A DNA stretch of 64,000 nt from Candidatus Saccharimonadales bacterium (GTDB lineage Bacteria; Patescibacteriota; Saccharimonadia; Saccharimonadales; UBA4665). The stretch spans positions 1,044-65,043 of the forward strand of contig DATBED010000042.1 of the NCBI GenBank assembly GCA_036276195.1. The letters run 5' to 3'. Positions 609 to 9,647 of the stretch are shown piece after piece. Both the position numbers and the translations under genes were made by a program. Positions within the stretch are counted from its first letter, which is position 1; each line of letters starts with the position of its first letter. A model generated the notes under the pieces. It made no database searches, was not told the origin of the DNA, and worked only from the letters and a program-made list of their open reading frames with translations.

Positions 609-998
609 TTGAGAATCTTCGCAATAAAACGGTTCCACGCGTGGGCCAAAGGCCACGAATTAACTGATGCCCTCTTGAGACGCGCCGTCGAAGAAATAGC
701 ACAGGGTAACGTTGAGGCAAACTTAGGTGGTCATCTATATAAGAAACGGATCGCCACAAAAGGCAGAGGTAAAAGCGGAAGTGTGCGAACGCTGGTCGCT
801 TACTCGGCAAAGCAAAGAACCTTTTTTCTGTATGCCTTTGAAAAGAACGATCAGAGCAATATTACCCCAAGGGAAAAGATAGCTCTGCAAGAATTAGGCA
901 AATTCTATCTTGGCCTTACCGACAAAGAGTTAACGCTTCGTCTCAAAAACCGGGCGATCATAGAAGTAAAAGAAGAAGGGAGTGAGCATGGACGGTAA
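609..998 (+). CDS. RelE-fold toxin of the HigB-2 / COG4737 type
   Basis: 129 aa. MRIFAIKRFHAWAKGHELTD..AVEEIAQGNVEANLGGHLYKKRIATKGRGKSGSVRTLV matches the family pattern recalled for COG4737 toxins. It overlaps the downstream HTH gene by 17 nt. Confidence 0.7.
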   Translation: MRIFAIKRFHAWAKGHELTDALLRRAVEEIAQGNVEANLGGHLYKKRIATKGRGKSGSVRTLVAYSAKQRTFFLYAFEKNDQSNITPREKIALQELGKFYLGLTDKELTLRLKNRAIIEVKEEGSEHGR

Positions 999-1284
999 AA
1001 CAATTATGGAAGTCGTGCTGGAAGCAGCAAACGACGCTAAAGCAGACAAAATCACCATGGACAAGCTGGAGAGTTTAGCTCTGCCCCAGGTACAAGCACT
1101 GACGCCAGCGCAGATTAGACAGCTACGGGAGCAGTCTAAGTTAAGCCGCAGCGTGTGGGCCAAAGTACTCAACGTGGGAGTTACGACAGCCCAAAAATGG
1201 GAGAGCGGTAAAACACGCCCGGATGGCGCGGCGCTCAAGCTGCTTAATTTAGTGCGGACGCACGGGGTAACGACGCTGTTGTAA
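982..1284 (+). CDS. XRE-type HTH antitoxin (HigA-2 / COG2944-like)
   Basis: 100 aa. The C-terminal HTH is LTPAQIRQLREQSKLSRSVWAKVLNVGVTTAQKWESGKTRP. It overlaps the toxin stop. Start could be GTG 982 or ATG 988. Confidence 0.7.
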   Translation: MSMDGKTIMEVVLEAANDAKADKITMDKLESLALPQVQALTPAQIRQLREQSKLSRSVWAKVLNVGVTTAQKWESGKTRPDGAALKLLNLVRTHGVTTLL

Positions 1285-2742: not shown

Positions 2743-2771
2743 ATGACAGCCGAGGCTGATCCTGCTATACT
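2743..2771 (+). promoter_or_regulatory. candidate sigma70-type promoter for the virB4 genes
   Basis: ATGACA 2743-2748, 17-nt spacer, TATACT 2766-2771. Confidence 0.35.
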
Positions 2772-2806
2772 AACCATAAACGAAAAGGTGGGCGCCGTCA
2801 GCGAAC

Positions 2807-3901
2807 ATGAATCCTCAAACAAATAATCCAGACCCCTTGGCAAACGGGCAGCCGGTGGCTGTGCCTTTTCAGCCTGGCGAGGTTTCGATTCAACCGGCCG
2901 GCTTGCCGCGTGCCGAAGGTCAGCGCTTCGCGGCGCCGATTAGCTTTAGTGGACCAATAAGTACCGGTGAGCCGGTCATTCCCATCCAGCCGCCAGCCCA
3001 GCCGTTGACTGTGCCATTGCCGCCGCCAGTGATCCAGCCCCACACCCTGGCACCACCGGTGCCGGTTGGTGGTGTCATGCCGGAGCGGCCAGGCCCGCCT
3101 TCGCCGCCGCAACCGGTGGCCACTCAAGCCGCGTCGCCGCAGGCCAAAACCGGTACTGGCGGTACGCCGCCGGTCCATTCGCACAGCACCCAAAACTCTC
3201 TGCAAATCGCTGAAATTCGCGACGGCATCGTAATCATGAGTGACGGATCATTTAGAGCAGTGCTAATGGTTAAAAGTATCAACTTCGATCTGATGAGCCA
3301 GCAAGAGCAAGAGGCGGTGGAGTATTCCTACCAGGGCTTTTTGAACTCGCTGTACTTTCCGGTTCAGATCTTTATTCGCTCGCAAAAGGTCGACCTGCAG
3401 CCCTACATTGAGAAGCTAGATAAAATCCGAACCGAGCACGACAACATGTTGCTGGCGCTGATGATGGAGGATTATATCGGCTACATTGATGCCCTTAGCC
3501 AACAGACCAACATCATGGACAAGAAGTTTTACATTGTGGTTCCTTTCTTCCCTGTGGTTGACGCCCAGCAGGCGCTGACCCAAAGCAAGAACTTCCTAAC
3601 CGGCTTGGGCAGCCTGTTCAACAAGCAAGACAAGCACGTGGTGATCAACGAGGCCGATCTGGAAAACGCCAAAACCGAGCTGCGCAACCGGGTGCAGGCG
3701 GCGCTGGCCGGCTTGCAACAGTGCGGTATTCAAGGCCTGCCGCTCGACACCCAAGAGCTGATCGAGCTGTATTACGACTCTTACAACCCCGACACGGCTA
3801 CCCGCCAACAGCTCAAGAATTTCGACCATTTGACGGCCGACATTGTCACCAAAGGGCAGGGCGCCGCACCGCAGGCCCACTTGCAGAGGGAGCTTAACTG
3901 A
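2807..3901 (+). CDS. VirB4 N-terminal-domain-like protein without P-loop, proline-rich N-terminus
   Basis: 364 aa. The first ~140 aa are Pro-rich. The segment IAEIRDGIVIMSDGSFRAVLMVKSINFDLMSQQEQEAVEYSYQGFLNSLYFPVQIFIRS resembles the N-domain of Gram-positive VirB4/TraE proteins. The stop overlaps the next ATG (TGATG). Confidence 0.45.
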   Translation: MNPQTNNPDPLANGQPVAVPFQPGEVSIQPAGLPRAEGQRFAAPISFSGPISTGEPVIPIQPPAQPLTVPLPPPVIQPHTLAPPVPVGGVMPERPGPPSPPQPVATQAASPQAKTGTGGTPPVHSHSTQNSLQIAEIRDGIVIMSDGSFRAVLMVKSINFDLMSQQEQEAVEYSYQGFLNSLYFPVQIFIRSQKVDLQPYIEKLDKIRTEHDNMLLALMMEDYIGYIDALSQQTNIMDKKFYIVVPFFPVVDAQQALTQSKNFLTGLGSLFNKQDKHVVINEADLENAKTELRNRVQAALAGLQQCGIQGLPLDTQELIELYYDSYNPDTATRQQLKNFDHLTADIVTKGQGAAPQAHLQRELN

Positions 3902-5844
3902 TGCTTGGCAAGAAGAAGCAAGCGGTCGACCCGGTGGCTGTGGCCCAAGCCCAGCGGGCCCGTGAAGAACAAGAAGTGCAGGCCGCTTTTCAAAAGGGCA
4001 TTACGGCGCTACGCGACTTTATTGCACCGAGCTCGCTGGAGCTTAAAAGCACCTACTTTCAGCTGGGCACGCGTTACGCCCGCACTTTTTACGTGTTTGG
4101 CTACCCGCGCCAGGTCTACACCGGCTGGCTAAGCGGCCTGGTTAACGTTGACGAGGTGGTCGACATTAGCATGTACATTTACCCGGTCGAAAGCCAGGTG
4201 GTACTAGAGAACCTGCGCAAGAAGGTGACGCAGCTGGAGGCCGGCATTCAAATCGACAGCGAGAAGGGGCGGGTGCGCGATCCGGCCAAGCAGGCCGCCA
4301 TTCTCGACGCCGAAGAAATGCGCGACAAGCTGCAGGTCGGCGAAGAACGCTTCTTCCGTTTTGGCCTGTACTTCACCTTGTACGCCGGCAGCATGGAAGA
4401 GCTGGAGTTCGTCTCTCATAAAGTCGAGTCAATGCTCGGCCAGCAGCTGGTTTACAGCAAGCCGGCCACTTCGCAGCAGGAGCAGGGCTTGAACAGCACC
4501 GTGCCGCAAATGGTCGACCAGCTGCAGATCCGCCGCAACATGAGCACCGGCGCTTTGAGCACCAGCTTTCCCTTCACCAGCGCCGACTTGTCGCAAGACA
4601 CCGGCATTTTGTACGGCATCAACATGCACAACTCCGGTCTGGTTATTTTTGACCGCTTCTCGCTGGAAAACGGCAACTCGGTGGTCTTCGCCAAGTCGGG
4701 CGCCGGCAAGTCGTTCCTGGTTAAGCTGGAAGCATTGCGCAGCATGATGTTCGGCACCGAAATTTTTATCATCGACCCCGAGAACGAGTACCAGCGCATG
4801 GCTGACGCCGTTGGCGGCGCTTACGTGCGTCTTAGCTTGAACTCTTCCACCAGGATTAACCCGTTTGATTTGCCGAAAGTAGTTGACGCCGAAGAAGCCG
4901 ACAACGCCTTACGATCTAACTTGATCACGCTGCATGGGCTACTGCGCCTAATGATGGGCGGCGCCCAGATTCAGATGCAAGGCGGCGGCATGATGCCGGC
5001 CCTGGCGCCCAGCGAAGAAGCCGACCTCGACGCCGCGCTAATCGAAACCTACGCTAAAGCCGGCATCACCAACGACCCGTTAACGCACACCGCCCAGCCG
5101 CCGACCATCGCCGACCTCTACGACACGCTGCTGCACATGGGCGGCACCGGCCCGCAGCTGGCGCAGCGCCTGCGCAAGTACACCAGCGGCACCTTCGCCG
5201 GCATTTTCAGCCAACAGAGCAATATCGACATCAATAATCCGCTGGTGGTGTTCAACCTGCGCGACCTGGAAGACGAGCTGCGCCCTGTCGCCATGTATAT
5301 TGTGCTGAACTTTATCTGGAACAAGACCAAGGCCGACCAAAAACGTCGCTTGCTGGTGGTCGACGAGGCCTGGCAGCTAATGAAGTACGAGGATTCGGCC
5401 AACTTCTTGTTCTCGCTGGCCAAGCGGGCCCGTAAGTACAACCTGGGCATCACCACGGTGACGCAAGACGTCGAAGACTTTATGGGCTCGCGCATGGGCC
5501 GGGCGATTGTGGCCAACGCCTCAATGCAGTTCTTATTGAAGCAGTCGAGTTCGGCCGTCGACGTGCTGACCGATGTTTTCAAGTTAACTAGCGAGGAGCG
5601 TAAGCGTCTTAGCCAGTTCCCGGTCGGCCAGGGCCTGTTTTTTGCCGGCCAGAACCATGTGCACATTCAGGTGGTGGCCAGCCCGACCGAGACATCGCTG
5701 ATCACTACCAATCCGGAGCAGGTCCAACAGATCAATGCTGCCGCGGCGGCCGGCCCGGCAGCGGCCGGCGAATTCAACCAGCCGACCGGCACGATCGACC
5801 TGGGCAACCGCCTGGCGCCCGGCAGTTCCGGCACCAGCGCTTAA
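3901..5844 (+). CDS. virB4: VirB4/PrgJ/TrsE-family type IV secretion ATPase
   Basis: 647 aa. Walker A is VFAKSGAGKSF and Walker B is RRLLVVDEAWQLM. The N-domain FQLGTRYARTFYVFGYPRQVYTGWL is typical of Gram-positive VirB4. Confidence 0.85.
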   Translation: MLGKKKQAVDPVAVAQAQRAREEQEVQAAFQKGITALRDFIAPSSLELKSTYFQLGTRYARTFYVFGYPRQVYTGWLSGLVNVDEVVDISMYIYPVESQVVLENLRKKVTQLEAGIQIDSEKGRVRDPAKQAAILDAEEMRDKLQVGEERFFRFGLYFTLYAGSMEELEFVSHKVESMLGQQLVYSKPATSQQEQGLNSTVPQMVDQLQIRRNMSTGALSTSFPFTSADLSQDTGILYGINMHNSGLVIFDRFSLENGNSVVFAKSGAGKSFLVKLEALRSMMFGTEIFIIDPENEYQRMADAVGGAYVRLSLNSSTRINPFDLPKVVDAEEADNALRSNLITLHGLLRLMMGGAQIQMQGGGMMPALAPSEEADLDAALIETYAKAGITNDPLTHTAQPPTIADLYDTLLHMGGTGPQLAQRLRKYTSGTFAGIFSQQSNIDINNPLVVFNLRDLEDELRPVAMYIVLNFIWNKTKADQKRRLLVVDEAWQLMKYEDSANFLFSLAKRARKYNLGITTVTQDVEDFMGSRMGRAIVANASMQFLLKQSSSAVDVLTDVFKLTSEERKRLSQFPVGQGLFFAGQNHVHIQVVASPTETSLITTNPEQVQQINAAAAAGPAAAGEFNQPTGTIDLGNRLAPGSSGTSA

Positions 5845-5847
5845 GCC

Positions 5848-5877
5848 TTGCAGGCGTGCATCGTTTTGTAGTACAAT
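5848..5877 (+). promoter_or_regulatory. promoter of relB/yafQ cassette
   Basis: TTGCAG 5848-5853, 18-nt spacer, TACAAT 5872-5877, then ATG 9 nt downstream. It begins immediately after the left direct repeat. Confidence 0.4.
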
Positions 5878-5886
5878 GTATGCACT

Positions 5887-6168
5887 ATGAATAGTACGGC
5901 CCTGACCATCAGAACCGATCCTAAGACCAAAAAGGCCATAGCAGACTTTGCGGCCTCTGTTGGCCTGTCTACCAGCGCCTTCGCGACGGCCATCCTTAAG
6001 CAAGCCGTGCGGGAGGGCCGTGTGGTATTAAGTCCTGCTCTGGAACCCACGCCGTATCTAGAGAAAATCATGCGTCAAGCAGATAAGGACATAAAGAAAG
6101 GCACAAACCTATCGCCGGTATTCGACTCGGTTGATGACATGTTCGATCACCTTGAAAAGACTGCCTAA
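5887..6168 (+). CDS. RelB/DinJ-family antitoxin
   Basis: 93 aa. The N-terminal RHH-like segment is LTIRTDPKTKKAIADFAASVGLSTSAFATAILKQAVREGR. Architecture resembles DinJ. Confidence 0.7.
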   Translation: MNSTALTIRTDPKTKKAIADFAASVGLSTSAFATAILKQAVREGRVVLSPALEPTPYLEKIMRQADKDIKKGTNLSPVFDSVDDMFDHLEKTA

Positions 6169-6173
6169 AAGTC

Positions 6174-6431
6174 ATGAAGGTGCGCTATCTTAAATCTTTC
6201 CAAAAGCAAGTAGTAAAGCTGCAACCGGCCCAAACTAACCGGCTCAAAGCTGCGCTGTTGCTGTTCCAGATCGAACCAGACCACCCAGACCTTTACAATC
6301 ATCCTCTTACTGGTAACTGGGCGGGTTATCGCTCGATTGCCTTCGGAGGAGACTTACGGGCGCACTACAAAATGGTTAACGACATTGCGGTTTTCGTGGC
6401 TTGCGGCAGACACAGCCAGCTCTATAAATAG
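6174..6431 (+). CDS. YafQ/RelE-family mRNA interferase toxin
   Basis: 85 aa. It carries the HPLTGNWAGYRS motif typical of YafQ/RelE-type toxins and starts 5 nt after the antitoxin. Confidence 0.7.
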   Translation: MKVRYLKSFQKQVVKLQPAQTNRLKAALLLFQIEPDHPDLYNHPLTGNWAGYRSIAFGGDLRAHYKMVNDIAVFVACGRHSQLYK

Positions 6432-6548
6432 CTCCGCGCCCGGCAGCTCCGGCACCAGCGTTTAAGCCGGCCTTCAGACAAGGGTAAACTCGACCGTTTT
6501 AAGGTATAATGGTAAACGTAAGAATTAAGACTTAGGTGAAAAACCAAC

Positions 6549-9500
6549 ATGGCAAATCAGGTCTATGACCCCAGGGCCGACGAAGAACGTGCACCAGAAT
6601 CTGATGATCTAAGCCCAGAACACGGCGCCGCAGCCGGCAAACCTTATGATCCGCGTGGCCACGATGTCGCGGCCGGTAACTCATCTGACCCTCGCGGGGA
6701 CGGACTTAGTGATGTCCGACAAGCCGAAAATAGCCCCGGCCTTTATAACCCAAAGGGTGACAAAAGCGAAAACCCAAGCGGCCTCAAGGGTTCTGAGGAA
6801 TCAACTGGCGGAGGCGACACCGTTGGGAGTGGCTACAACGACGACAAGGAACCAACCAAAAGACAAAGAGCTAAGGCGGGTTGGGCCATACTCAAAAATC
6901 GCAAAGTCCTTGTTGGGGGTGGTAGTGGCATCATAATTAGCGTAATCGTAGCTTTTCTATCTCTAAGCTCTGGTCCGCTGGAGTTTATTCACATTGCCCA
7001 GCTGCTCGAAAAGTTCCATTTCTCGGCCCAACAAGACGGTGAAGCCAGCCGACTTATGAAAATAGCTCGCTTCATTAACGACCCGTCAAAACCTCAAAAC
7101 ACCCGTCTAGGCATAATAGGCAATGCAGTAGCTAACAATTTGGAGGCCAAGATTCACGACGCCACCGGCCTAAATAATAAGTACAATAGCCAGACTGGTA
7201 AGTTTGAGGGGTACTCAGTTGACCCGAAACATGAAAACTTTAAAGATAAGACCAACCAGCAAATTATAGACGAGCTCGTAAGCACCTACGGCATAAACGA
7301 ATCACAGATTACCTTAACGCCCCAGATAAAAGGGGCGCCAGAAGTTAGCTTTAACCCGGATACCGGCGGTTCGGCTTTAAATCCTATAAACACCGTAAAG
7401 AGTTATCGTAACCAAACCGGCTTTGCCCGTTCTTTACTGGGGAAAGCAGGCTTGAGCAAGGTTTCAGCCTGGGCCGGCACCAGGGTACTAACCAAAAGAG
7501 CTGGCTGGACCTTTCACCCGATAAAGGCACTAGATTCGGCGTATCAGCAACAGCTTTTAAAAGGCGGCAAGAAGGTGTTTGATAAGCTTAAAGAGCAGTT
7601 CAATAGTCAAGAGACTAGCTCAATAGCTAGTGACACCACCGCCCCCCCAAGTACGCCAGAAAACAGTAATGAACAAGGTCCAAATGGCCAACCCGCAAAT
7701 GACTCTAACAGAACGAGTGCGGCCAACGCCGGCAATAGCGTCCAAGCCGATCCATCCGAGACTAATGTTAAGGCCAAGATTGCAGGTGGCGGCGCCGCCT
7801 TAGTTGGTGTTGCCTGTGTCATGCATGGCATTGATGAAAGCGTTCCGAAATTAAGGGAAGCGAAGGTTATATTTCCTATGATGGAATTTGCCGGCCAGTT
7901 TATAAGTCTTGGCAGCCAGGCGCAAAGCGATCAAGACATAACCACGGCCCAGCTTGGCTTATATAAACCGTTCCTAGATGGCACCAACAGCCAAGGCCAG
8001 GTTACTTCAACCTGGAATCAAGCCCAGAGTATCCAGGCCGAGCTTGGCGAGCCGCAAAACGGCCCTGATCTTCCTAAGAGCGCTCAAGTGTTTAACGCTG
8101 GGGTGCCCTTCGGATTTATCGATGGAATTCCCGGGCTGGGCGGCATTTGCAGTATTTTGGGAAGTCCACTTGGCCAAATTGCTGGCACAATCCTTTCGCC
8201 TTTCGCAACGGCCTTTCAGTCAGTTGCGATCGGACCATTAATCTCGGATTTTACCGGTTGGTTATCTGGTGTGCCGATAGACATTCTTAAAGGTGCTGGT
8301 GCTGTGGATGGTAACTACATTAACTACGGTGCCAGGGCTGCGGCTGACCAGCAGTATGCCTCGGCGGGTGGCACGACCATGAGCTCAAGCGACGAGTCCA
8401 ACCTAAAAAATACGACTGTGGCGCTCGATAACAAGGATTTCCAATCAAAAAGCCTGGCTTATCGTATCTTTAATCCCGACGACGCTCAGAGCCTGGCTTC
8501 TAATATTATGGATAATTATGGCTCGAGCGGCATTGCTCAAGGCTTTGCCAGCATGTTCCATAGTTTTGGCAGTATATTTACGGCCGCTTTAAGGGTGCCG
8601 GCTACTCTATTCTCTGGCATTACGCATGCCGCAAGCCAGCCTTATGATTACCATGGCTTGCAGAAGGTTGGCTTCACGGCGGCCGACTTAGCTAATCCGC
8701 TGTTTGATAATTCGTTTCAAAATGGCTGTGATGTAACAGGTGGATGTAAAAAGCCAGATGGCACGCCGGTTGGCCCCACAATAAGCCAAAGCGTCCTAGG
8801 AGATCCGGCGAATCCAAACCAAGCAAACAAAGACGTAATTACCAAAGTTAATACCTGTTTTGGCGACACGATCTCTAATGACGGCACTATGTGGAACATT
8901 GACTACGGCTCAGCGCCCCTGGACATGTATAGCGACGCTTACACTTCAGCTAATTGCGACAGCCATGACACGTCGTGGATGCGCGTTCGCTTCTGGATAC
9001 TCGATACCCAAACCTTGGAAGGCTATGACTGCAGCCAAAGCAACTCCTCGACAGCCGACCAATCTTGCACGGACATTGGCTTCAACACCTCTGGATCAGG
9101 CAGCAGCTCAACTACCACAGCCCCGACAGCCTCCAGCCCCGCACCTACGGGTAGCGCAAAAGATTTGGCCGCACAGCTCCTACCTTACATTAGTCAGAAA
9201 AAAATATCTTGTAATAACCAAGCTAGCGACTGCCCCGACATTCAAAATACAGCTAATGGTGTAAGTATAAAAGGTGGACAGGGCTGCCAAGTCGATTCAC
9301 TACAACCAGGATTATTGGGCATGTTATTAAAGCTAGTGCAGATGGGTCATACGTTTGTTCTTTCGGCAATATGTAGTGATCATTCTAATGATGGCTTGGG
9401 TGGACATGCTGGTGGTCGAGCGGCTGATTTCAATATAATTGATGGGGTGTTTATGGGGCCCGACGATGTGCCCTGGGACAGTACAAAAATTGCAGCTGGA

Positions 9501-9647
9501 CAAAAACTTGATCAAGACATCGCCTCATTCATGCCTAAAAGTACCGGTTTTGGCCAGATACAGTGCCACCCAGCTTTCCCTTTTTTGAGCGGCTTTAATA
9601 CTTTTAACGACACCTGTCATCACCAACACATACAAGTAGAGAACTAA
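6549..9647 (+). CDS. large membrane protein with C-terminal LAS/M15-type zinc peptidase (cell-wall hydrolase) domain
   Basis: 1032 aa. A disordered N-terminus with DPRG repeats is followed by a TM segment (GGSGIIISVIVAFLSLS). The C-terminus has GHAGGRAAD (H-x6-D) and HHQHIQV (H-x-H), as in M15/VanY-like peptidases. Confidence 0.55.
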   Translation: MANQVYDPRADEERAPESDDLSPEHGAAAGKPYDPRGHDVAAGNSSDPRGDGLSDVRQAENSPGLYNPKGDKSENPSGLKGSEESTGGGDTVGSGYNDDKEPTKRQRAKAGWAILKNRKVLVGGGSGIIISVIVAFLSLSSGPLEFIHIAQLLEKFHFSAQQDGEASRLMKIARFINDPSKPQNTRLGIIGNAVANNLEAKIHDATGLNNKYNSQTGKFEGYSVDPKHENFKDKTNQQIIDELVSTYGINESQITLTPQIKGAPEVSFNPDTGGSALNPINTVKSYRNQTGFARSLLGKAGLSKVSAWAGTRVLTKRAGWTFHPIKALDSAYQQQLLKGGKKVFDKLKEQFNSQETSSIASDTTAPPSTPENSNEQGPNGQPANDSNRTSAANAGNSVQADPSETNVKAKIAGGGAALVGVACVMHGIDESVPKLREAKVIFPMMEFAGQFISLGSQAQSDQDITTAQLGLYKPFLDGTNSQGQVTSTWNQAQSIQAELGEPQNGPDLPKSAQVFNAGVPFGFIDGIPGLGGICSILGSPLGQIAGTILSPFATAFQSVAIGPLISDFTGWLSGVPIDILKGAGAVDGNYINYGARAAADQQYASAGGTTMSSSDESNLKNTTVALDNKDFQSKSLAYRIFNPDDAQSLASNIMDNYGSSGIAQGFASMFHSFGSIFTAALRVPATLFSGITHAASQPYDYHGLQKVGFTAADLANPLFDNSFQNGCDVTGGCKKPDGTPVGPTISQSVLGDPANPNQANKDVITKVNTCFGDTISNDGTMWNIDYGSAPLDMYSDAYTSANCDSHDTSWMRVRFWILDTQTLEGYDCSQSNSSTADQSCTDIGFNTSGSGSSSTTTAPTASSPAPTGSAKDLAAQLLPYISQKKISCNNQASDCPDIQNTANGVSIKGGQGCQVDSLQPGLLGMLLKLVQMGHTFVLSAICSDHSNDGLGGHAGGRAADFNIIDGVFMGPDDVPWDSTKIAAGQKLDQDIASFMPKSTGFGQIQCHPAFPFLSGFNTFNDTCHHQHIQVEN

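What the first reader, a model, noticed from the sequence alone, without database searches (positions are those of the whole stretch)
5815..6468. Self-contained RelB/YafQ cassette inserted at the stop codon of virB4, flanked by 33-bp direct repeats
The last 30 nt of virB4 plus 3 nt (5815-5847) recur 31/33 identical at 6436-6468. The right copy still reads APGSSGTSV-stop in frame. Between the copies lie a promoter (TTGCAG-18-TACAAT, starting at the first base after the repeat), relB and yafQ. A 33-bp duplication is too long for a transposase target-site duplication. It looks like attL/attR of a site-specific or homology-mediated cassette insertion, yet no recombinase is nearby. The result is a TA module in the middle of the T4SS operon.
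Basis: seen in the sequence. Interest (0 to 1): 0.6.

Follow-up and report, generated by a model that had tools for sequence, protein, structure and literature searches.

The report
Toxin-antitoxin cassette inserted with target duplication
A 588-base toxin-antitoxin gene pair with its own promoter has been inserted just after the virB4 gene of a soil Saccharibacterium and is flanked by two copies of the gene's last 33 bases; no mobility gene was found, and this way of inserting was previously described for restriction-modification genes.

Summary
Bases 5815-5847 (the last 30 nt of virB4 plus 3 nt) recur at 6436-6468 with 31/33 identity. This is far beyond chance: no shuffle and none of 400 control segments came close.

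Between the copies lies exactly one self-contained unit: a -35 box, an operator palindrome with the -10 box, relB and yafQ. There are 0 nt of spare DNA on the left and 4 nt on the right.

All 80 species-level relatives have virB4 followed directly by the large downstream gene, with no cassette and no repeat. So this is a lineage-specific insertion that duplicated its target and left both virB4 and the downstream promoter region intact.

No recombinase, inverted ends or attC site was found.

The closest known kind is 'insertion with long target duplication', described for restriction-modification systems in competent bacteria. Here the cargo is a toxin-antitoxin pair that does not cut DNA.

Related cassettes elsewhere also carry flanking repeats. 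Many sit in arrays bounded by tRNA 3'-end repeats.

The enzymology is unresolved. I favour host recombination (0.6) over a trans-acting integrase (0.2). No empty-site or circular reads could be sought, because only contigs of one sample exist. Interest is moderate.

The parts
3901..5844 (+). virB4-like T4SS ATPase gene (647 aa), the target gene; it stays intact after the insertion
   Evidence: Pfam P-loop_TraG 5.4e-27 and AAA_10. There are 84-93% identical orthologues in 80 Saccharibacteria genomes. The tail ...APGSSGT.. is native to close relatives.
5815..5847 (+). Left copy of the 33-nt direct repeat: the last 9 codons of virB4, its stop codon and 3 nt (the functional virB4 tail)
5848..5877 (+). 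Cassette promoter: -35 TTGCAG (5848-5853, the first base after the repeat), 18-nt spacer, -10 TACAAT (5872-5877)
   Evidence: Read from the sequence. The layout is conserved in about 20 family members. The generic consensus scan did not call it.
5856..5885 (.). Operator-like nested palindrome GTGCAT..TTGTA-g-TACAA..ATGCAC overlapping the -10 box; presumed RelB autoregulation site
   Evidence: Read from the sequence. DNA fold z -2.7. The family consensus is GCATCGTTTTGTAcTACAATGTAgACA.
5887..6168 (+). relB/dinJ-like antitoxin gene (93 aa)
   Evidence: Pfam RelB 18 bits, below its cut-off. There are 239 homologues, many named RelB/DinJ antitoxin by their sources, always upstream of the yafQ homologue.
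6174..6431 (+). yafQ/relE-family toxin gene (85 aa)
   Evidence: Pfam YafQ_toxin 33.5 bits, above its cut-off of 30. PDB YafQ chains match at E 1e-5 to 7e-5. The family alignment shows conserved R62, H64, H80 and Y84.
6436..6468 (+). Right copy of the 33-nt repeat: a displaced, non-functional copy of the virB4 tail (relic stop at 6463-6465), contiguous with the native intergenic region
6469..6548 (+). Native virB4-to-downstream-gene intergenic region with a -10-like TATAAT at 6505-6510; its layout matches the intergenic region that follows virB4 directly in relatives
   Evidence: compare L001, L003, L006, L007, L008
6549..9647 (+). 1032-aa downstream T4SS-locus gene; in all relatives an 800-1700-aa ORF starts -3 to 125 nt after the virB4 stop

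Best explanation
A minimal type II toxin-antitoxin cassette was inserted, in this lineage only, immediately after the virB4 stop codon. The cassette runs from the -35 box through the operator, relB and yafQ to the stop codon (588 nt). The insertion event duplicated 33 nt of the target.

Because the duplicated block runs through the stop codon, virB4 keeps a complete reading frame. The downstream gene keeps its own promoter region. So the insertion is tolerated inside a conserved T4SS-like gene cluster.

The cassette carries no mobility gene. The most likely route is the host's own recombination acting on incoming DNA, that is, 'insertion with long target duplication'. This could happen in two ways:
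- Homology-assisted: a short virB4-tail segment travels with the cassette and recombines with the resident tail, either as a Campbell-type circle or as one homologous anchor plus an illegitimate join.
- De novo: fill-in or template switching across a staggered break.

Once in place, the pair persists because losing it releases a stable mRNA-cleaving toxin (addiction).

What is shown: the insertion, the duplication, the empty sites, the cassette boundaries and the lack of a recombinase among the ORFs tested. What is inferred: the recombination route, toxin activity and autoregulation.
For: - Repeat and anatomy.
- All 80 relatives have virB4 followed directly by the large gene, with no relB/yafQ and no tail repeat. 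The window's right flank matches their intergenic layout.
- The insert equals the family-wide conserved unit. Homology between cassettes starts at the -35 box and stops at the toxin stop codon.
- No recombinase among 29 window ORFs scanned. No inverted ends. There is no room for an attC site.
- Flanking direct repeats recur in the family. WIN, L092 (about 110 nt, 95%), L140 (about 55 nt, 93%) and L119 (68 nt, 75%) have unique repeats. The L084, L089, L101/L105 and L116/L157 groups have tRNA-3'-end repeats, and L148 has gene-tail repeats. This is out of 59 distinct cassettes plus the window's own.
- In L148 the repeat copies differ mostly at synonymous sites (pN 0.056, pS 0.51). Those copies therefore diverged as functional gene ends, as expected if a homologous tail travels with the cassette.
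- A 95% identical cassette sits in two different contexts, L116 and L157.
- A second relB allele in the same sample differs at 10 mostly synonymous sites.
- Published precedent: RM systems inserted with variable target duplications over 30 bp and no mobility genes, mostly in naturally competent species, including a 46-bp repeat overlapping the 3' end of a gene (PMC2853133).
- Saccharibacteria are naturally competent (PMC10633639).
- Islands without a recombinase can excise between short direct repeats without RecA (PMC5426353).
Against: - No same-species genome without the cassette exists in the collections. The exact VirB4 occurs only on contigs of the same sample. The empty site is therefore shown only at 84-93% protein identity.
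- No donor with the cassette next to virB4 was found.
- With only two differences between the copies, the window cannot tell a de novo duplication from an imported tail.
- Many related cassettes lie between tRNA-3'-end repeats, the classic footprint of integrases. This raises the prior for a site-specific route.
- No reads were available to show excision or circles.
- Toxin activity is untested, and the RelB match is below the Pfam cut-off.
Confidence: 0.6

Rival explanations
1. Site-specific integration by a recombinase acting in trans. On this reading the 33-nt copies are attL and attR of a tiny non-autonomous integrative element (CIME-like). It would restore the 3' end of its target gene in the way that tRNA-targeting islands, or ICESt1 at the fda 3' end, do.
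For: - The repeat covers the 3' end of the target gene and runs just past its end, as integrase att sites do.
- Related cassettes are bounded by tRNA-Arg, tRNA-Ser and tRNA-Glu 3'-end repeats in arrays next to the real tRNA genes. In L101 the geometry is the same: the repeat abuts the -35 box and the next copy starts at the toxin stop.
Against: - No integrase among 29 window ORFs or in the related short loci.
- None of the 80 relatives has any element at the virB4 3' end.
- Repeat sequences and lengths differ from locus to locus (31 to about 130 nt).
- The window repeat does not resemble the tRNA-type repeat (p 0.36) and has no significant dyad or hairpin.
- The insert has no spare DNA for arm-type sites.
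Confidence: 0.2
2. Classical transposition or integron capture. The repeat would be a target-site duplication made by a transposase, or the cassette would be an integron cassette.
For: Direct repeats flank the insert. TA cassettes with their own promoters are common in chromosomal integrons (PMC2654758).
Against: - 33 nt is far beyond the 2-15 nt of transposase duplications.
- There are no terminal inverted repeats and no transposase.
- Only 4 nt lie between the toxin stop and the repeat, so there is no attC site.
- The repeat is virB4 coding sequence that is present once in relatives.
Confidence: 0.04
3. Artefact: assembly chimera or chance repeat.
For: The MAG comes from a short-read metagenome. 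The left junction is seen only in assemblies of one sample. Related strains co-occur there: a 151-nt contig shares 5799-5840 and then diverges.
Against: - The longest exact block shared by the two copies is 13 nt, too short to mislead assemblers using k of 31 or more.
- The JGI contig, the MAG contig and an independent Logan contig agree base for base.
- Depth is even, about 13-15x, across the cassette and the right flank.
- Chance is excluded.
Confidence: 0.03

Closest known systems
Insertion with long target duplication of restriction-modification gene units (Nobusato et al. 2000, Gene 259:99; Furuta, Abe and Kobayashi 2010, PMC2853133)
   Same: - A small addictive gene unit is inserted between conserved genes with no mobility gene.
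- It is flanked by direct repeats over 30 bp that align to a single copy in genomes lacking the insert.
- Repeat length varies from locus to locus.
- The repeat can overlap the 3' end of the upstream gene (46-bp repeat at H. influenzae HI0105).
- The hosts are mostly naturally competent.
   Different: - The cargo here is a type II toxin-antitoxin pair whose toxin cuts mRNA, not DNA. The authors' suggested common cause, DNA breakage by the restriction enzyme, cannot apply.
- The host is a CPR/Saccharibacteria bacterium.
- The unit is much smaller (588 nt) and trimmed exactly from promoter to stop codon.
Integrase-mediated islands and cis-mobilizable elements that insert into the 3' end of a tRNA or protein gene (for example tRNA-targeting islands; ICESt1 and CIMEs at the fda 3' end, 27-bp repeats; cited from my own knowledge)
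   Same: Direct repeats made of the target gene's 3' end. The target gene is restored. Non-autonomous elements can lack the integrase. Tandem accretion gives arrays, as seen around related cassettes at tRNA genes.
   Different: No integrase was found. No other element uses this site in the 80 relatives. There is no conserved core shared between loci and no spare DNA for recombinase arm sites.
E. coli DinJ-YafQ and RelBE type II toxin-antitoxin modules
   Same: Antitoxin-first bicistron. The toxin matches the YafQ family and solved YafQ structures. A palindromic operator overlaps the promoter.
   Different: Only distant sequence similarity (E about 1e-5). The antitoxin is below the RelB family cut-off. 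Activity is untested.
Recombinase-less H47 genomic island of E. coli, which excises between short direct repeats without RecA (PMC5426353)
   Same: A small island bounded by short direct repeats, with no recombinase of its own; mobility is attributed to host functions.
   Different: Excision was shown experimentally for that island. Here no excision data could be obtained.

Membership tests
Insertion with long target duplication (criteria of Furuta et al. 2010, PMC2853133) | The insert is absent from related genomes while both flanks align | tested here: met
   80 of 80 relatives lack relB/yafQ and have virB4 followed at -3 to 125 nt by the large gene. The flank layout matches. The relatives are other species (84-93% VirB4 identity), not the same species.
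Insertion with long target duplication (criteria of Furuta et al. 2010, PMC2853133) | Target duplication longer than 30 bp, with both copies aligning to the single target copy | tested here: met
   33 nt, 31/33 identical. The sequence is the native virB4 tail, present once in relatives.
Insertion with long target duplication (criteria of Furuta et al. 2010, PMC2853133) | Insert under 20 kb with no other mobile element or mobility gene | tested here: met
   The insert is 588 nt and holds only the TA operon. No recombinase among 29 window ORFs scanned.
Insertion with long target duplication (criteria of Furuta et al. 2010, PMC2853133) | Cargo is a restriction-modification system (both R and M genes) | tested here: not met
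   The cargo is relB/yafQ. I therefore file it as a new variant of the kind, not as a member of the RM set.
Type II toxin-antitoxin module, RelB/DinJ-YafQ type | Toxin belongs to the YafQ/RelE family | tested here: met
   PF15738 scores 33.5 bits against a cut-off of 30. PDB YafQ chains match at E 1e-5 to 7e-5.
Type II toxin-antitoxin module, RelB/DinJ-YafQ type | Antitoxin of the RelB/DinJ type encoded immediately upstream | tested here: inconclusive
   PF04221 scores 18 bits, below its cut-off of 22.4. There is no PDB match. However, the gene is always paired with the yafQ homologue and many sources name it RelB/DinJ.
Type II toxin-antitoxin module, RelB/DinJ-YafQ type | Toxicity neutralised by the antitoxin; autoregulation at an operator | not testable with these tools
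   Only the conserved palindrome over the -10 box is seen.
Integrase-mediated integrative element (attL/attR) | A tyrosine or serine recombinase in or near the element | tested here: not met
   None in the insert and none among 29 window ORFs. The rest of the genome could not be searched.
Integrase-mediated integrative element (attL/attR) | The same att core is used by related elements or at the same site in relatives | tested here: not met
   No insertion at the virB4 3' end in 80 relatives. Repeats differ at each locus. There is no likeness to the tRNA-type repeat.
Integrase-mediated integrative element (attL/attR) | Excised circular form and a restored empty site in the population | not testable with these tools
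   The only run with the locus is held as contigs, and no joints were reported.
Transposon or insertion sequence | Transposase, terminal inverted repeats and a 2-15 bp target duplication | tested here: not met
   No transposase, no inverted ends, and a 33-nt duplication.
Integron gene cassette | attC site downstream of the cassette ORF and an integron integrase | tested here: not met
   Only 4 nt lie between the yafQ stop and the repeat. No IntI-like ORF was found.

The most novel reading that the evidence does not exclude
Saccharibacteria may have a cassette mobility system that needs no recombinase. Minimal promoter-to-stop units (toxin-antitoxin pairs and some other genes) would travel together with a copy of 30 nt or more of the 3' end of a conserved gene: a tRNA, virB4, or a small ORF. 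They would insert by host recombination after DNA uptake. Repeated events would build integron-like arrays. The window would show a fresh event at a protein-coding target.
Probability: 0.25. Interest if true: 0.7.

Novelty: new variant of a known kind. Interest (0 to 1): 0.5.

Why it matters
How chromosomal toxin-antitoxin modules move is largely unknown. They are clearly transferred horizontally, yet they are usually found without any mobility gene.

This locus is an unusually clean case. The boundaries are exact, the duplication comes from the target, and there are 80 empty sites.

It extends 'insertion with long target duplication' from restriction-modification systems to a toxin that does not cut DNA. 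If that holds, the shared cause is more likely addiction combined with host recombination and DNA uptake than DNA breakage by the cargo.

It also shows that a conserved secretion-system gene cluster in an ultrasmall, gene-dense genome can absorb a selfish module without damage, because the duplication preserves the gene end.

The arrays seen around related cassettes suggest a wider, testable pattern in Saccharibacteria and possibly related CPR bacteria.

Tried and rejected
- **Runs sharing virB4 words.** Four such runs hold only distant relatives at 85-90% identity and show no cassette next to virB4.
- **Exact look-ups.** RelB, YafQ and VirB4 return only contigs 100% identical to the window, so they give no independent support.
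- **Viral contigs.** No viral contig carries the toxin family.
- **Pseudo-tRNA att site.** I tested whether the window repeat is one. Its alignment to the tRNA-type repeats is no better than shuffles (p 0.36), so I rejected this.
- **REP-like hairpin.** I tested whether the repeat is one. z was -1.1, so I rejected this.
- **Terminal inverted repeats.** The only inverted pair (5855-5872 and 6364-6381, 78%) is internal and weak, so I rejected this.
- **L116 and L148.** I first read these as simple target duplications. Closer comparison shows arrays or adjacent paralogous modules, so I do not count them as clean analogues.
- **'TTAAGC' microhomology.** A possible 6-nt microhomology at the left junction is suggested by the closest relB-side relative, L138. 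It rests on one sequence, so I did not rely on it.
Full report
**Observation**

The window comes from a soil Saccharibacteria (Saccharimonadales) genome. The nearest VirB4 orthologues are all from that group.

ORF 3901-5844 encodes a 647-aa VirB4-like ATPase (P-loop_TraG, AAA_10). It lies in a co-directional cluster:
- a PrgI-like gene (1333-2499);
- a 364-aa gene (2807-3901), labelled PF26593 TraC-like in the JGI contig's precomputed gene calls, with no family found in my own Pfam scan;
- virB4;
- a 1032-aa gene (6549-9647);
- an 828-aa lysozyme/esterase gene.

Bases 5815-5847 are the last nine codons of virB4, its stop codon and three more bases. They recur at 6436-6468 with 31 of 33 identical. 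The right copy reads APGSSGTSV-stop in its own frame, against APGSSGTSA-stop in the functional copy.

The pair scores 27 in an ungapped comparison, while shuffles never exceed 12-13. It is the only strong local direct repeat in the 64-kb window. None of 400 random 545-nt 'pseudo-cassettes' taken from 1.1 Mb of Saccharibacteria DNA had flanking repeats scoring 15 or more. The repeat is not low-complexity and has no significant hairpin (z -1.1).

**What lies between the copies**

The 588 nt from 5848 to 6435 hold:
- a -35-like TTGCAG, starting at the first base after the repeat;
- an 18-nt spacer;
- a -10-like TACAAT;
- a nested palindrome (GTGCAT..TTGTA-g-TACAA..ATGCAC, 5856-5885; fold z -2.7);
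- relB (5887-6168, 93 aa);
- yafQ (6174-6431, 85 aa).

The toxin passes the Pfam YafQ_toxin cut-off (33.5 against 30 bits) and matches solved YafQ structures at E about 1e-5. The antitoxin scores below the RelB cut-off (18 against 22.4 bits), but it is always the partner of this toxin family.

A generic promoter scan does not call the promoter, because the -35 matches only 3 of 6 positions. An alignment of about 20 family members shows the same -35/-10/operator layout at the same distance from the start codon, so the promoter is credible.

DNA similarity between family members begins at the -35 box and ends at the toxin stop codon. Nothing outside is shared. The window's insert is therefore exactly the family's minimal unit, with 0 nt of spare DNA on the left and 4 nt on the right.

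**Is it an insertion?**

A scan of one genome per species returned 80 loci with VirB4 at 84-93% identity. None encodes RelB or YafQ nearby. In every locus long enough to judge, the virB4 stop is followed at -3 to 125 nt by an ORF of 800-1700 aa, and none has a second copy of the virB4 tail.

The virB4 tail motif (..PGSSGT..) is native to the nearest relatives. The DNA to the right of the window's right copy has the same layout as the intergenic region that follows virB4 directly in those relatives: a gGTATAAT box, then AAAACCAACATGGC.

So the cassette is a lineage-specific insertion, and the repeat derives from the target. The duplication explains why the insertion is tolerated. The left copy completes virB4, and the right copy leaves the native promoter region of the downstream gene untouched.

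There is a limit to this evidence. The species has been sampled once. The JGI and Logan contigs that carry the same proteins are 100% identical to the window and come from the same sample. No same-species empty site is available.

In that sample's contigs a 151-nt contig matches 5799-5840 with one mismatch and then continues as ...GCC GGC TAA GAGTTTCTCGG... This looks like a co-occurring relative's virB4 end without the cassette, but it is too short to build on.

The same contig set holds a second allele of relB 5862-5979 with ten differences at lower depth. Eight of the nine affected codons are changed synonymously. A close variant of the cassette therefore exists in the community.

**Mobility genes**

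There are no inverted ends, and there is no room for an attC site. No integrase, resolvase or transposase domain appears among the 29 window ORFs scanned with Pfam. These cover the T4SS cluster and most ORFs of 170 aa or more up to position 49 kb.

**The cassette family elsewhere**

I collected 74 further loci carrying adjacent relB/yafQ homologues, which reduce to 59 distinct cassettes. A minority have significant flanking direct repeats. They fall into three kinds.

(a) Unique, locus-specific repeats like the window's:
- L092: about 110 nt at about 95%, in the intergenic region between a TrbL-like gene and T4SS-pilin genes of another Saccharimonadales genome.
- L140: about 55 nt at about 93%.
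- L119: 68 nt at 75%.

(b) Repeats that are 3' ends of tRNA genes, often in co-oriented arrays of small promoter-bearing units:
- The L084 group: the repeat ends CTCTCCGCCA, the 3' end of the tRNA-Ser gene 1.3 kb upstream.
- L089-91: a tRNA-Arg-like ..GGTGTACCA-AGCAGAAAT follows each of three different TA pairs.
- L101 and L105: five and four copies.
- L157 and L116: tRNA-Glu fragments.
- In L101 the geometry is the same as in the window. The repeat abuts the relB -35 box, and the next copy starts at the yafQ stop.

(c) L148 has six copies of the last 75-130 nt, including the stop codon, of a 71-aa ORF. Each copy follows a different TA pair. All keep the reading frame and the stop. Two compared copies differ mainly at synonymous sites (pN 0.056, pS 0.51).

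A 95% identical 691-nt cassette sits in two different contexts, L116 and L157, which indicates recent movement. None of these short loci encodes a recombinase. No viral contig carries the toxin family.

**Mechanism**

The structure meets the published definition of 'insertion with long target duplication'. That definition requires an insert without mobility genes, flanked by direct repeats over 30 bp that align to a single copy in genomes lacking the insert. It was described for restriction-modification systems, mostly in naturally competent bacteria, and includes a 46-bp repeat overlapping the 3' end of H. influenzae HI0105 (PMC2853133).

The authors of that work suggested DNA breakage by the restriction enzyme as the common cause. 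That cannot apply to an mRNA-cleaving toxin. Saccharibacteria are naturally competent (PMC10633639). Islands without a recombinase can excise between short repeats without RecA (PMC5426353).

I therefore favour host recombination acting on incoming DNA. Two sub-routes fit:
- **Homology-assisted.** A copy of the target gene's tail travels with the cassette and recombines with the resident tail. This could be a Campbell-type circle or a one-sided homologous anchor with an illegitimate second join. It best explains the synonymous-biased divergence in L148. It would also explain why conserved tRNA ends are the commonest repeats, since they offer portable homology.
- **De novo.** The target is duplicated at a staggered break or by template switching.

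With only two differences between the window's copies (one synonymous, one Ala/Val at the last residue), the window cannot decide between them.

The main rival is a trans-acting integrase, which would make this a CIME-like element. The tRNA-end repeats around related cassettes make it a serious rival. For this locus, four things count against it:
- no integrase was found;
- no element of any kind occupies the virB4 end in the 80 relatives;
- there is no shared core, and the repeat has no likeness to the tRNA-type repeats (p 0.36);
- the insert has no spare DNA for arm sites.

Transposition, integron capture, assembly artefact and chance are effectively excluded by the anatomy and the controls.

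**Function**

I infer that this is an autoregulated RelB-YafQ addiction module. It is most simply a selfish passenger rather than a part of the secretion system, because the T4SS-like cluster is conserved and syntenic in all relatives without it. No terminator-like site follows yafQ, so transcripts from the cassette promoter may read into the downstream gene. Toxicity, neutralisation and operator binding are untested.

**Verdict**

The insertion, the over-long duplication and the missing recombinase all stand. 'Homology-mediated' is more likely than 'site-specific'.
- It is a new variant of a known kind.
- Interest is moderate (0.5). It is a clean, well-bounded example that carries a mechanism known from restriction-modification systems over to toxin-antitoxin cassettes and to CPR bacteria. 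It also points to a wider, untested pattern of repeat-bounded cassette arrays.

Noticed in passing
L089 4547-4695, 5337-5484, 6172-6234; L101 633-662, 1401-1432, 2140-2170, 2758-2787, 3308-3338; L105 (four copies): These loci hold co-oriented arrays of small units, each with its own promoter. The units include TA pairs of several families and non-TA genes. They are separated by repeats of about 30-150 nt that resemble the 3' end of tRNA-Arg (..CGGTGTACCA). A real tRNA-Arg gene lies upstream in L089 (3284-3360). No integrase is present in the loci. The layout is integron-like but uses tRNA-end repeats.
   Followed up: partly
L148 155-285, 988-1111, 1973-2103, 2856-2987, 3613-3688, 4323-4417: There are six copies of the 3' end, with stop codon, of a 71-aa ORF. 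Each follows a different TA pair. All keep the frame and the stop codon. Two compared copies differ mostly at synonymous sites (pN/pS about 0.1).
   Followed up: partly
L116 2087-2775 and L157 2085-2775: The same relB/yafQ cassette (95% identity over 691 nt) lies in two different genomic contexts. L157 is an array at tRNA-Glu (gene at 176-252; fragments at 2081-2117, about 3196 and about 4534).
   Followed up: partly
L031 1227-1272 and 2724-2769, with ORF 2764-3402: In a relative's virB4 flank, a REP-like hairpin repeat (AGAGGCCTGGCCTCT) brackets two VapBC-type modules. It lies directly next to an ORF that looks, by eye, like an IS200/RAYT-type tyrosine transposase (motifs YHVYARG and HFHLL).
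   Followed up: no
window 5862-5979 (contigs of run X1): The same soil sample contains a second allele of the relB 5' region at lower depth (5.7 against 13.3). It has ten differences, and eight of the nine affected codons are changed synonymously. It is bounded by identical 31-mers that include the window-specific operator.
   Followed up: partly
window 5799-5840 (contigs of run X1): A 151-nt contig matches the virB4 tail with one mismatch. It then continues as GCC GGC TAA GAGTTTCTCGGCGGATATTTTAA. This is probably a co-occurring relative's virB4 end without the cassette.
   Followed up: no
window 609-1284: Another TA pair (RelE-like with an MqsA/HTH antitoxin, by the precomputed Pfam hits on the JGI gene calls) lies just upstream of the PrgI-like gene. 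The T4SS-like cluster therefore has TA modules at its head and inside it. No flanking direct repeat was found for this pair.
   Followed up: no
L092 2825-2932 and 3562-3677: A second Saccharimonadales genome has a relB/yafQ cassette inside its T4SS-like locus, between TrbL-like and pilin genes, with a target duplication of about 110 nt. That makes two repeat-flanked cassettes in T4SS-like clusters, which may or may not be a coincidence.
   Followed up: partly
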